Shown: one piece after another, positions 56,801 to 59,800 of the stretch | Position numbering within the stretch: the stretch's first letter is position 1 | Layout: the number at the start of each line of letters is the position of its first letter | Assembly: GCF_054482525.1 (NCBI RefSeq) | Contig: NZ_CM137006.1 | Direction: 5' to 3' (one strand) | Length of the DNA: 64,000 nt | Program-made: the position numbers

Positions 56801-59800
56801 AACCGTTAACCGCATCCTTACTGGTATCAGAAATAGCGCCGTCTTTAACGTTGGTGATGGTACTGGTAGTATCTGTACCATGTGCCGCACTATATGCCTT
56901 TTTAAGGGAGTCCCATTGTAACGTATTATTGTCCAGGCCCGTTAAGGCGTCGCCAACAGTGCCGAAAATACCACTTTTCAGCCTGTAATTTGGGGAAGTA
57001 ACGACGCCTTGCGCATTGACGGTAGCCCCCCCACCAAGATTGTCCGCTACTGACTTACTGATAGCATAAAGCTGTGATCCATTGATGGCATCAGTACTGG
57101 TAGTGCTGATATCACCTGCTGCCATATTGACAATTTGTCGCTGAGCTGTTGTGTTACCCACAGAAACAGTATCCGCGTCAGTCGCTACAGAACCAGCACC
57201 CAGAGCAACTGAATTTTTCCCCTGAGCACTGGCTTGAGCACCAATTGCAGTGCCATTTTCTAAACCGGCATAACTGCCTTGTCCAAGAGCAATAGCATTT
57301 ACACCACCTGTAATACTACCATTACCCAGCGCGATAGCATTTGCGCCGTCAGCTTTATTCCCTTGACCGATGGCAATTGCGCCAGCCGCTACTGCCTGAC
57401 TTTGATTGCCCAGAGCAATTGTGTTGTCGACATCTGCAATACTGCCGGAGCCCAACGCGATACTATTAAGTCCATTTGCCTCCGCGTTAGTACCAACTGC
57501 CGTCGCATTTTCAGCAGCTTTGCTCTCTGCACCCATAGCAATCGCGTTTGCTGCGCTGGCGAGTGATTTTCTGCCGAATGCGAGACTGTCTACGCCTGCC
57601 GCAGCACTGTTGCGGCCTACTGCAATCGCGTTAGCCGCAGATGCGGCGCTACTTGCTCCCAGCGCCATAGAATATTCTTTCGAGGCATTAGCATGATCAC
57701 CGAGGGCGATGCTCATAATTTCGTAAGCTTGAGCCGTATTTCCTAACGCAATAGTTTTTTCACCATCGGCAAGGGCGGTGTCCCCAACAGCAAGAGATGT
57801 ATAACCATTCGTCTTTGCGTAACGACCAAAAGCCGTCGAACGGTCGCCAGTTGCTGTTGAAGATGCACCCAGTGCGACACTTCTGTCACCCAGTGCTCTT
57901 GCACTAACCCCAAACGCCATGGATGCTCCACCACTTGCGAGGGTTTTTGACCCGATGGCAGAGCTGTACATACCTTCGGCTATCGCGTCATAACCTAAAG
58001 CTGTACTCGCGCCACTTGTGTTTATAAAGGTATTTGCTTTTGAACCTTTACCGATAGCAACCCAGCCGTCACCTGCTGAGCCATCGCCATAATCAGTTGG
58101 CTGCCCGTCGTAGTTATTAGCTAACGCTCCAAACGACGACAACAACCCACCTGCAACCAGCGCAGAAATTAACAGCTTACTGCGTCCGCTCTTTTTGCCA
58201 CGGCTCTTCGCCGTTTCGCTGGCAACGCTGTAACTGCCCGTCGCTGGATTCCAGATAACTTTAAAAATTTTGTTCATTATTGATGCTCTCTATTCCTTGA
58301 TATAAGCGCAGAAGCTGCATTTATTTTTTGTTTTTTCGCTGCCGAGTTTCAGCAGGTTGAACAGTGTCGAACTGGAGATTGGCCATATTGATGGACAACT
58401 TCAGATACTTCAGGTTATTAGGCGAAACGCCTTTTAATGTCAGATTAATGTCTTGCCATTGACCAGGCATTAATTGCAGAGTGGAATTCATGGTGGTGTT
58501 GAAAAGTAATTGTTGCCACTTCGCCAGAGCTTTGGCATCGGTGGGTCTTTCATTGCCCCATGTCGCATGAAAGCCAATATTTGATACGGGAACGCTTAAT
58601 AGATTGACTAGTGAAATACGAATAACGCTGCCGTTTTCAACCGCATCAATAGCCAGCACCCGACCTGCCAAACCGACAGAACCGTTATTTAGAATGAAGT
58701 ATTGTGTTTGTGCCGGGTTAAATTCTGTAAAGACAAATTCGTCCTGTTTGTCTTTAACCGCCTTCACCACGCCAGCGAGCGTCTTGGTACTATTTATGAT
58801 AGTAGTTTGTTGTTTTTCAAAATGTTCTATCTTTCGCTTATCGAGTTCCTGTTGTTTCTCAAGCGCCTCAATTTTGCTTTTTTGCAACTCTTGCTGTGTA
58901 ACGAGGTCGTCGACCTTACTCGCTTTTTCAATATAGTCACACCCTGCCAATAAGCAGAGAGGCACTATTATTAACACGCTTAACAGTGTTTTCTTTAGGT
59001 TCATAGGATGAATTCCTTTTCATAATCCCGATACAGTTGATAATTACGGCACAATCATTTTTTTTATGAATGATTAGAGTGGAGCATATCCGACAAATAA
59101 ATTTGTTAGAGAATTTTTGTATTAATGGGTTGTGCGAATATGTTATTAAGTGTCAAACAATTTCGGTTTGTAGCCAATAATATTAATCGCGCGGATTTTA
59201 ATGATCGGTGTCAATCAATGTCAAATGTTTCACCGGATAAAGGCCCAGGGCAGGGAAAGGTAAATATTCAGTTGAGTGATGTTTTATTGCGAAGTTTGCG
59301 ATGCTGATAGAAAAATTTAAATAATTAATTATGTTTCAAGCATTGATATGCGGCGATTCATTGTTAATATTGATACATCATTCTTTAATTTGTACCTGTT
59401 TTTCAGAATTTAGCCTGCTCCGAGCGCTCAGAAGTGTAGGTGGAGTTAAATATATAATGTTAAGAACGTTATAAATATTCGATCTCTACAACAGGCTCCT
59501 GCATGTGCCAGCAGGAGCGAGTAAATCGTGAGTGGCTGTAATTACAGCGACGAGAAAGGAACTTAAAACGCGGTCTTAGAGAACCCTGTCATCTCTTGTA
59601 GGCCCATTTCGCGGCCCAGCGCGGTCATTGGGTGCACAACGACCAGTCCGCGAACGCTCTTCTTCAGTTTGCCCATATCAGCTTGCTCTTTTTTAGTAAT
59701 CGCGCGCTGGAACGGCATCTTCATCAGCTTCTGTGCTTCCTTACTGAGTTTCTGGCTGTGAACTTCGCGCAGGCGAGCAATTTCTGCTTCCAGAGTGGCT

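What the first reader, a model, noticed from the sequence alone, without database searches (positions are those of the whole stretch)
59005..59562. AT-rich ~560-bp non-coding region upstream of the lipoprotein-adhesin operon
The interval between yibL and the lipoprotein gene is strongly AT-rich, with runs such as aatttttgtattaat and ttaaataattaattatg, and contains no convincing ORF. AT-rich upstream regions of this kind are typical of H-NS-silenced adhesin promoters. A stem-loop (gctcctgc/gcaggagc, ~59492-59520) 3' of yibL may terminate yibL.
Basis: inference. Interest (0 to 1): 0.35.

Follow-up and report, generated by a model that had tools for sequence, protein, structure and literature searches.

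The report
Silenced promoter region of adhesin operon
This AT-rich gap is the ordinary control region of the known E. coli adhesin operon sadB-upaG/ehaG, with a strong conserved promoter that published work on the same allele shows is kept off by the DNA-coating protein H-NS.

Summary
Window 59005-59562 (E. coli PCN033) is a 558-bp, 35.5% GC, non-coding interval between yibL and a SadB-type lipoprotein gene, which is followed by a UpaG/EhaG/SadA-type trimeric autotransporter adhesin gene.

It is a regulatory region with a conserved layout on the - strand:
- Two hairpins lie just after the yibL stop codon. The main one is 59495-59518, -16.5 kcal/mol.
- About 270 bp of AT-rich upstream DNA holds one conserved 12-bp box (59399-59410).
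- The best sigma-70 promoter match in the whole 64-kb window is TTGACA-18-TAAAAT at 59224-59195. It is kept in 12 of 12 divergent alleles from Escherichia, Salmonella and Pseudocitrobacter.
- A leader of about 184 nt (29.5% GC) runs to the start codon.

The same allele sits upstream of upaG in CFT073. A held paper citing Totsika 2012 lists UpaG among H-NS-repressed autotransporters. Overproducing the AT-binding regulator TosR induces the lipoprotein gene about 34-fold.

The hairpin is real and a hairpin is kept at this position in every allele, but here it lacks a U-tract, so it is not a textbook terminator. No RNA family, conserved ORF, inversion switch or H-NS motif enrichment was found. The one new lead is the unexplained distal box.

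The parts
59563..59925 (-). yibL CDS (context): the upstream, same-strand neighbour whose 3' end abuts the region
   Evidence: ORF list. Annotated as a YibL family ribosome-associated protein. Pfam DUF2810, E = 6e-32.
59535..59548 (-). Small palindromic hairpin GCUGU-AAUU-ACAGC, 15 nt after the yibL stop
   Evidence: I4; -5.6 kcal/mol. Kept only in the closely related alleles.
59495..59518 (-). Main yibL 3' hairpin: 8-bp GC-rich stem, 8-nt loop, weak U tail (CUGUUGUA). Probable yibL terminator or 3'-end stabiliser, and insulator of the operon
   Evidence: I25; -16.5 kcal/mol. P. vendiensis keeps the stem with a C-G to U-A double change and a U-rich tail. Other alleles carry different hairpins at the same place. 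The terminator scan did not call it.
59399..59410 (-). Conserved distal box AATTCTGAAAAA (consensus WAWTCYGAAAAW), about -212 from the predicted start site; function unknown
   Evidence: One of only three conserved blocks in a 9-allele alignment. Column-shuffle test 0/5000. It lies 172-184 bp upstream of the -35 in those 9 alleles. It is also present in E. ruysiae and E. albertii but absent from the short P. cyperus region. It coincides with a predicted curvature peak.
59304..59332 (-). Very AT-rich run ATAATTAATTATTTAAATTTTTCTATCAG, the counterpart of the putative TosR (PapB-family) motif reported 299 bp upstream of CFT073 c4423
Evidence: Table S2 of PMC5956150. CFT073/PCN033 alignment.
59195..59224 (-). 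Sigma-70 promoter of the operon: -35 TTGACA (59224-59219), 18-bp spacer, -10 TAAAAT (59200-59195), then a GC-rich discriminator CCGCGCG
   Evidence: An 11/12 match and the only one in 128 kb of scanned strand. The -35 and -10 are kept at 17-18 bp spacing in 12/12 alleles whose pairwise identity is otherwise 38-77%.
59005..59188 (-). Predicted leader of about 184 nt (start site about 59187-59188 inferred from the -10), 29.5% GC, no significant structure
   Evidence: GC. Fold z = +0.14. The distance from -10 to ATG is 163-202 nt in 9 alleles. The start site is inferred, not mapped.
59053..59075 (-). Inverted repeat AATCATT-N9-AATGATT inside the leader, either a weak RNA hairpin or a protein site
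   Evidence: -3.4 kcal/mol. Kept in the B2/D/E-type E. coli alleles and both Pseudocitrobacter species with different loop lengths. Absent from the O104:H4, E. fergusonii and Salmonella alleles.
59014..59017 (-). Shine-Dalgarno AGGA, 9 nt before the sadB-homologue ATG (59004)
   Evidence: Read from the sequence. The surrounding block GGGATTATGAAAAGGAATTCATCCTATG is conserved.
58321..59004 (-). SadB-homologue lipoprotein gene (lipobox LLAGC), first gene of the operon
   Evidence: PDB 4C47 (SadB), E = 2e-70 over residues 23-227. Annotated DUF3251. It corresponds to c4423/C_RS20890 in CFT073.
53025..58277 (-). Trimeric autotransporter adhesin gene (1750 aa), positional orthologue of UpaG/EhaG/SadA, 43 bp after the lipoprotein gene
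   Evidence: The homologous place is annotated upaG in CFT073 and ehaG in O104:H4.

Best explanation
The interval is the transcriptional control region of the sadB-homologue/trimeric-autotransporter operon (upaG/ehaG/sadBA type).

How it is laid out, reading the - strand:
1. yibL ends, and its transcript is closed off by a GC-rich hairpin (59518-59495). This hairpin acts as a terminator or 3'-end stabiliser and insulates the operon from yibL transcription.
2. About 270 bp of AT-rich DNA follow. They carry one conserved distal box and a very AT-rich run.
3. Next comes an intrinsically strong sigma-70 promoter (TTGACA-18-TAAAAT, 59224-59195).
4. Transcription should start near 59188 and produce an AT-rich leader of about 184 nt ahead of the lipoprotein gene.

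How it most likely works: H-NS coats the AT-rich DNA on both sides of the promoter and keeps this strong promoter off under laboratory conditions. Loss of H-NS, or an excess of AT-rich-DNA-binding antagonists such as the PapB-family protein TosR, relieves the silencing.

Shown here: composition, lack of coding, promoter quality and conservation, the hairpins, and identity of the allele with CFT073's.

Taken from the literature: H-NS repression of UpaG, and TosR induction of c4423.

Inferred: the start site, H-NS contact with this exact DNA, termination at the hairpin, and any role of the distal box.
For: - Identity of the locus. The window is E. coli PCN033. The gene order is mtlADR-yibT-yibL-[interval]-DUF3251 lipoprotein-YadA-like adhesin-lldP. 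The lipoprotein matches SadB, PDB 4C47, at E = 2e-70. The sadBA operon is described as lying between mtl and lld, with K-12 lacking it (PMC3953254; deletion confirmed).
- Composition. GC is 35.5% against 50.4%.
- Promoter. It is the single 11/12 sigma-70 match in the 64-kb window. The -35 and -10 are kept at 17-18 bp spacing in 12/12 alleles from three genera, while the rest of the interval is 38-77% identical. Clustering of conserved columns was never reached in 5000 column shuffles.
- Same allele as CFT073. UpaG is listed among H-NS-repressed autotransporters (PMC5012682 citing Totsika 2012). c4423 rises log2 5.1 on tosR overexpression, with an AT-rich motif 299 bp upstream of its ATG.
- Salmonella. 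STM3690 (sadB) falls 4.2-fold in a fur mutant in which hns rises 3.1-fold.
- Hairpin. -16.5 kcal/mol; flank z = -3.1. A hairpin is kept at this position in all alleles, with one compensatory change.
- Nothing else found. No Rfam family and no conserved ORF.
Against: - H-NS binding to this DNA was not and cannot be tested here.
- The primary paper (Totsika 2012, PMC3302597) is not in the held library. The H-NS claim therefore rests on a secondary citation and on my recollection of its abstract.
- Sequence proxies for H-NS are weak. The 10-mer motif has one 2-mismatch match in the interval and no enrichment. A/T-tracts are not enriched. Mean predicted curvature is only at the 73rd percentile.
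- The TosR effect comes from overexpression and may be indirect. Its motif is an in-silico prediction.
- The start site is unmapped.
- The hairpin has no U-tract and was not called by the terminator scan, so read-through from yibL is not excluded.
Confidence: 0.8

Rival explanations
1. The operon has no promoter of its own that matters. It is expressed by read-through from yibL, the hairpin acts as a leaky attenuator, and the AT-rich interval is only a long spacer.
For: - yibL is on the same strand, immediately upstream.
- The hairpin lacks a U-tract and was not called as a terminator.
Against: - A near-consensus promoter is kept in 12/12 alleles while the surrounding sequence decays to about 40% identity.
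- Every allele keeps a stable hairpin after yibL.
- c4423 is induced about 34-fold by TosR, and yibL is not in that paper's top-25 table.
Confidence: 0.08
2. The AT-richness is only a by-product of a horizontally exchanged, highly polymorphic adhesin locus and has no silencing role. The promoter is controlled by ordinary specific regulators alone.
For: - The whole segment 53004-59561 is absent from K-12 and about 1260 other genomes.
- Alleles within E. coli differ by up to 57%.
- H-NS sequence predictors are weak here.
- Salmonella STM3690 is reported as Fur- and Fnr-dependent.
Against: - H-NS repression of UpaG is reported for CFT073, which carries the same allele, and, from my recollection of the Totsika 2012 abstract, of EhaG in EHEC as well.
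- An 11/12 consensus promoter that gives no expression in culture calls for active silencing. The native expression conditions of sadBA are described as unknown, and SadA was not detected in cultured Salmonella.
Confidence: 0.08
3. The interval hides a gene of its own: a small RNA, a small protein, or a structured cis-regulatory leader such as a riboswitch or RNA thermometer.
For: - It is unusually long (558 bp), and its length is kept at about 490-560 bp in most alleles.
- A conserved inverted repeat lies in the leader, and the SD can pair with UCCU next to the AUG.
Against: - No Rfam match better than E = 0.53.
- Leader folding is no better than shuffles (z = +0.14).
- The leader hairpins are weak (-3.4 and -4.1 kcal/mol).
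- The ORFs are unconserved and have no family match.
- Conservation is confined to the promoter hexamers and one 12-bp box.
Confidence: 0.03
4. The region is a phase-variation switch, either an invertible promoter element or a Dam/Lrp methylation switch, as at fim, pap, agn43 or upaE.
For: - It controls an adhesin.
- A GATC lies in the promoter spacer (59203-59206).
Against: - No long inverted repeats flank the promoter. The longest pairs are 70-80% matches typical of AT-rich DNA.
- The spacer GATC is not kept in the 4/1-1, O145 or O104 alleles.
- All genomes show one orientation in the alignments.
Confidence: 0.01

Closest known systems
Regulatory region of c4423-upaG in uropathogenic E. coli CFT073 (UpaG; Valle 2008, Totsika 2012)
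   Same: - Same chromosomal place and the same allele: 558 bp, gapless alignment, identical promoter, distal box and RBS.
- H-NS repression and TosR induction were reported for this locus.
   Different: - The strain differs (porcine ExPEC PCN033).
- About 6% of bases are substituted.
- The adhesin passenger domain differs in length (1750 aa against 1778 aa, from the annotated coordinates).
ehaG upstream region of EHEC and B1-type E. coli (EhaG)
   Same: - Same position, operon structure and interval length (543 bp).
- Same -35/-10 hexamers, 18-bp spacer and distal box.
   Different: - The rest of the interval is only about 43% identical (O104:H4 allele).
- A different hairpin follows yibL.
- It has no GC-rich discriminator and no leader inverted repeat.
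sadBA operon of Salmonella enterica (Grin 2014, PMC3953254)
   Same: - A lipoprotein plus trimeric autotransporter between mtl and lld.
- The lipoprotein is homologous to the solved SadB structure.
- The promoter hexamers and distal box are kept in a Salmonella-labelled locus.
   Different: - The -10 is TAGCAT with a 17-bp spacer.
- Fur/Fnr dependence was reported for STM3690 and was not examined in E. coli.
- The native promoter was never characterised: 'native expression conditions unknown'.
H-NS-silenced adhesin and surface-protein promoters of E. coli (upaC, upaH, F9 fimbriae, sslE, tos, auf)
   Same: AT-rich upstream and downstream DNA around an otherwise competent promoter, no expression in culture, and relief by hns deletion or by AT-binding antagonists.
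   Different: - Direct H-NS binding to this sequence is not shown here.
- No enrichment of the high-affinity motif and no unusual overall curvature.

Membership tests
sadBA-type lipoprotein/trimeric-autotransporter operon | First gene encodes a SadB-family inner-membrane lipoprotein | tested here: met
   Lipobox LLAGC. phmmer to PDB 4C47 (SadB), E = 2e-70 over residues 23-227.
sadBA-type lipoprotein/trimeric-autotransporter operon | A trimeric autotransporter gene follows directly after a short gap, between the mtl and lld operons | tested here: met
   A 43-bp gap, a YadA-like 1750-aa protein, and flanks mtlR/yibT/yibL and lldP. This matches the description in PMC3953254.
Sigma-70 promoter | -35 and -10 hexamers close to consensus with a 16-18 bp spacer, directed at the gene | tested here: met
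   TTGACA-18-TAAAAT, 11/12, on the - strand. It is the only such site in the window.
Sigma-70 promoter | Hexamers conserved where flanking sequence is not | tested here: met
   Kept in 12/12 alleles of three genera. Column-shuffle control 0/5000.
Sigma-70 promoter | Mapped transcription start site | not testable with these tools
   No TSS data were found for this locus. The start at about 59188 is inferred from the -10.
H-NS-silenced promoter region | AT-rich DNA well below genome GC, spanning the promoter | tested here: met
   35.5% GC against 50.4%. The leader is 29.5% and the upstream part 34.2%.
H-NS-silenced promoter region | High-affinity H-NS motif (TCGATAAATT-like, recalled from Lang 2007) or A-tract enrichment | tested here: not met
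   One 2-mismatch match in the interval. Window-wide, 77 matches against 67 +/- 8 expected. A/T-tracts: 7 against 8.0 +/- 2.4.
H-NS-silenced promoter region | Intrinsic DNA curvature near the promoter | tested here: inconclusive
   In a wedge-model calculation whose parameters I recalled from memory, mean curvature is at the 73rd percentile. Two local peaks exceed the window's 99th percentile, at 59400 (the distal box) and 59114 (the leader).
H-NS-silenced promoter region | Derepression in an hns mutant and direct H-NS binding | not testable with these tools
   Repression is reported for UpaG in CFT073, the same allele (PMC5012682 citing Totsika 2012). The primary paper is not held.
Intrinsic (Rho-independent) terminator | GC-rich stem-loop shortly after the stop codon | tested here: met
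   An 8-bp stem, -16.5 kcal/mol, starting 45 nt after the stop. A hairpin is present at this place in all alleles.
Intrinsic (Rho-independent) terminator | A run of U directly after the stem | tested here: not met
   The tail is CUGUUGUA (4 U in 8), and the scan did not call it. The P. vendiensis and P. cyperus versions are more U-rich.
Known RNA families (Rfam 15) | Covariance-model match at or near the gathering score | tested here: not met
   The only match is a chance U4 snRNA hit at E = 0.53, 17 bits against a 46-bit cut-off.
Phase-variable adhesin switch (invertible element or Dam/Lrp) | Flanking inverted repeats, or conserved paired GATC sites | tested here: not met
   No convincing flanking inverted repeats. 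The GATC in the spacer is not conserved.

The most novel reading that the evidence does not exclude
The invariant distal box WAWTCYGAAAAW may be the binding site of a dedicated, still unidentified regulator. It lies 172-184 bp upstream of the -35 in nine aligned alleles of three genera, is also present in E. ruysiae and E. albertii, and sits at a predicted DNA bend. Such a regulator could be a counter-silencer that opens the H-NS-coated promoter, and it would set the natural inducing signal of the UpaG/EhaG/SadA adhesins. That signal has never been found: 'native expression conditions unknown'. In several E. coli alleles the box abuts a TTAGCAGGTTAA/TTTGCAGGCTAA sequence. By eye, and from my memory of the consensus TTAGCAAGCTAA, this resembles a SlyA site. 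That is a lead, not a test.
Probability: 0.3. Interest if true: 0.4.

Novelty: already known. Interest (0 to 1): 0.2.

Why it matters
UpaG, EhaG and SadA are adhesins of uropathogenic, enterohaemorrhagic and Salmonella strains. They are silent in culture, and their natural inducing conditions are unknown.

Three results here give concrete targets for reporter fusions and pull-downs:
- the promoter is placed to 30 bp;
- the same promoter and distal box survive across alleles that are otherwise almost unalignable;
- the published TosR motif is placed on the map.

Beyond that, the finding is an ordinary, already explained H-NS-type regulatory region, and it should not be ranked as a discovery.

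Tried and rejected
- Rfam at a permissive threshold over 58000-60500 gave only a chance U4 hit.
- Small ORFs of at least 15 aa in both orientations have no Pfam family and are not conserved as protein.
- Structured leader, riboswitch or thermometer: folding of the 199-nt leader equals shuffles, and the local hairpins are weak.
- The H-NS 10-mer motif, A-tract counts and wedge-model curvature show no enrichment. There are only two local curvature peaks.
- Inversion or Dam switch: rejected.
- Repeated element or REP: the interval is single-copy per genome. K-12 instead carries a ~95-bp REP-like sequence at the deletion junction.
- The distal box was compared by eye, from memory of the consensus sequences, with sigma-E (TCTGA -10 but no GGAACTT -35), sigma-54, sigma-32, sigma-28, IHF, CRP, FNR, Fis, Lrp, RcsAB, ArgR, EvgA, DeoR and marbox sites. 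None fits across the alleles.
- A plus-strand promoter-like site with an extended -10 (59343-59370) is not conserved, since the 4/1-1 allele has a deletion there. I take it as spurious.
- The primary papers on UpaG/EhaG and on hns mutants of UPEC (PMC3302597, PMC2446758, PMC1540026) are not held.
- A second protein search for more distant SadB loci returned the same narrow set of genera: Escherichia, Salmonella and Pseudocitrobacter.
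Full report
**Where this is.** The interval matches E. coli PCN033 (NZ_CP006632.1) at 100%. On the - strand the gene order is mtlA-mtlD-mtlR, yibT (+ strand), yibL (59563-59925), the interval 59005-59562, a 227-aa lipoprotein gene (58321-59004), a 1750-aa YadA-like adhesin gene (53025-58277, 43 bp further on) and lldP. The lipoprotein has a lipobox (LLAGC) and matches the solved Salmonella SadB structure 4C47 at E = 2e-70. The adhesin carries trimeric-autotransporter domains. This is therefore the sadBA-type operon that Grin et al. placed between the mtl and lld operons and found deleted in K-12 (PMC3953254). The homologous place is annotated upaG in CFT073 and ehaG in O104:H4. 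K-12 lacks window 53004-59561 and carries about 95 bp of REP-like sequence instead.

**Checking the observation.**
- The interval is 558 bp and 35.5% GC against 50.4% for the window.
- Only 6.3% of 558-bp windows are as AT-rich, and nearly all of those lie in the waa LPS-core cluster.
- Both quoted AT runs and the stem-loop are present at the stated places.
- RefSeq annotates nothing here.
- The small plus-strand ORFs (60, 47 and 36 aa) have no Pfam family. They are not kept in the O104:H4, E. fergusonii, Salmonella or P. corydidari alleles, and where they align they score lower as protein than as DNA.
- Rfam gives only a chance hit.
- A/T-tracts are not more frequent than the composition predicts.

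**Anatomy from comparison.** Only 1880 of 5426 complete E. coli genomes carry something alignable to this interval. About 1260 carry the K-12-type deletion. Others, such as O104:H4, carry an allele too diverged for blastn, even though the gene order and a 543-bp interval are the same. I aligned nine alleles from Escherichia, a Salmonella-labelled contig and two Pseudocitrobacter species. Pairwise identity of the interval is 38-77%, and only 43% between PCN033 and O104:H4. Three blocks stand out:
- TTTGACA, the -35 element;
- ATTARNAT, the -10 element, 17-18 bp downstream of the -35;
- a 12-bp box WAWTCYGAAAAW, 172-184 bp upstream of the -35.

Such clustering of conserved columns was never reached in 5000 column shuffles. 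Three further loci confirmed the promoter in 12 of 12 alleles and the box in 11 of 12 (E. ruysiae, E. albertii, P. cyperus). The box is missing only where the interval is shortened to 382 bp.

**The promoter.** On the - strand, TTGACA (59224-59219), 18 bp, TAAAAT (59200-59195) is an 11/12 match. It is the only one in both strands of the 64-kb window; just two sites reach 10/12. The inferred start is near 59188. This gives a leader of about 184 nt at 29.5% GC that folds no better than shuffles (z = +0.14). The distance from the -10 to the ATG is 163-202 nt in nine alleles. A GC-rich discriminator (CCGCGCG) follows the -10 in this allele and several others, but not in all. A weak inverted repeat (59053-59075) and the RBS block are kept in a subset of alleles.

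**The yibL 3' end.**
- The 96 nt after the stop codon fold into two hairpins (z = -3.1).
- The main hairpin (59495-59518) has an 8-bp stem at -16.5 kcal/mol.
- Every allele has a stable hairpin 30-50 nt after the stop, though often with a different sequence.
- P. vendiensis keeps this stem with a C-G to U-A double change and a U-rich tail.
- In PCN033 the tail is CUGUUGUA, so the site fails the U-tract criterion and the scan did not call it.
- I read it as the yibL terminator or 3'-end stabiliser that insulates the operon. This is inferred.
- Identity between alleles drops from about 97% to about 70% immediately after this hairpin.

**Regulation.**
- The CFT073 interval upstream of c4423 (C_RS20890, the SadB homologue) and upaG is the same allele: 558 bp, gapless, with identical promoter, box and RBS.
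- A held paper lists UpaG among autotransporters repressed by H-NS, citing Totsika et al. 2012. My recollection of that abstract is that both EhaG and UpaG rise in hns mutants, but the paper itself is not held.
- In CFT073, overexpression of TosR raised c4423 by log2 5.1. TosR is a PapB-family AT-rich-DNA binder proposed to antagonise H-NS and Lrp.
- The authors' in-silico motif lies 299 bp upstream of the ATG.
- In Salmonella, STM3690 (sadB) falls 4.2-fold in a fur mutant in which hns rises 3.1-fold, and it is listed as Fnr-dependent.
- SadA is not detected in cultured Salmonella, and its native conditions are called unknown.
- A near-consensus promoter that is silent in culture fits active silencing.

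**What sequence-only predictors say about H-NS.** They say little. The 10-mer motif (recalled from Lang 2007) has a single 2-mismatch match in the interval and no enrichment. Mean wedge-model curvature is at the 73rd percentile. Two local peaks exceed the window's 99th percentile, one exactly on the distal box (59400) and one in the leader (59114). The model parameters were recalled from memory, so I treat this as suggestive only.

**Verdict.** The region is the control region of a known H-NS-repressed adhesin operon, so it is already known in kind and in this very allele. What this analysis adds:
- a 30-bp placement of the promoter;
- evidence that the promoter and a distal box are the only sequence elements held constant across very divergent alleles (a hairpin after yibL is kept by position, not sequence);
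- the qualification that the hairpin is not a canonical terminator here.

The identity of whatever recognises the distal box is the only open point. It is worth a modest follow-up.

Noticed in passing
window 53004-59561: The whole lipoprotein-adhesin segment, including this interval, is absent from K-12 MG1655, where about 95 bp of REP-like sequence joins yibL to the lldP upstream region. About 1260 of 5426 complete E. coli genomes share that junction.
   Followed up: yes
window 59005-59490 versus 59491-59562: There is a sharp allelic boundary. The 72 bp next to yibL are about 97% identical between allele classes, but identity falls to about 70% right after the hairpin (and to about 43% against the O104:H4-type allele, which also differs within those 72 bp). 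The regulatory region appears to co-diverge with the adhesin genes, as expected for an old recombining polymorphism.
   Followed up: partly
window 59188-59194: A GC-rich discriminator CCGCGCG follows the -10 in an otherwise AT-rich setting. It is kept in several but not all alleles. This feature is classically linked to ppGpp/DksA-sensitive promoters, which I did not test.
   Followed up: no
window 59150-59164 and 59208-59222: A direct repeat of GTGTCAA(A/T)CAAT (87% identity, 58 bp apart) places TTGnTTGACAC once on the -35 and once at about +30 in the leader. It could be paired protein sites or chance.
   Followed up: no
window 59343-59370 (+ strand): A promoter-like site with an extended -10 (TTGATA-16-TAATAT) points antisense towards yibL. 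It is not conserved in other alleles and is probably one of the spurious promoters common in AT-rich DNA.
   Followed up: partly
window 55711-56813: The adhesin gene contains 4-4.6 tandem copies of a 234-bp unit (88-93% matches) and a 300-bp unit repeated 1.9 times. This fits the length variation of the passenger domain between strains (1447-1778 aa across the annotated homologues seen).
   Followed up: partly
window about 28500-34800: This is the largest low-GC stretch of the window (minimum 29.6% GC). It is the waa/rfa LPS core biosynthesis cluster (O-antigen ligase, glycosyltransferases, rfaY, waaO, rfaP).
   Followed up: yes
window 53025-58277 (antisense): A published study claims an antisense overlapping gene (oloz5029, 552 nt) embedded in ehaG of EDL933 (PMC9927249). 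I did not check whether an equivalent ORF exists in this strain's adhesin allele.
   Followed up: no
window 58321-59004: The lipoprotein is annotated DUF3251 in RefSeq, yet it gets no hit in the Pfam-A or NCBIfam copies searched here at E <= 0.01. Only the comparison with PDB 4C47 identified it.
   Followed up: partly
L018 (E. albertii) 683-1215: The E. albertii interval carries two copies of the distal box (AATTCTGAAAAAT and CATTCTGAAAAAC, 78 bp apart), and its -35 is TTGACT.
   Followed up: no
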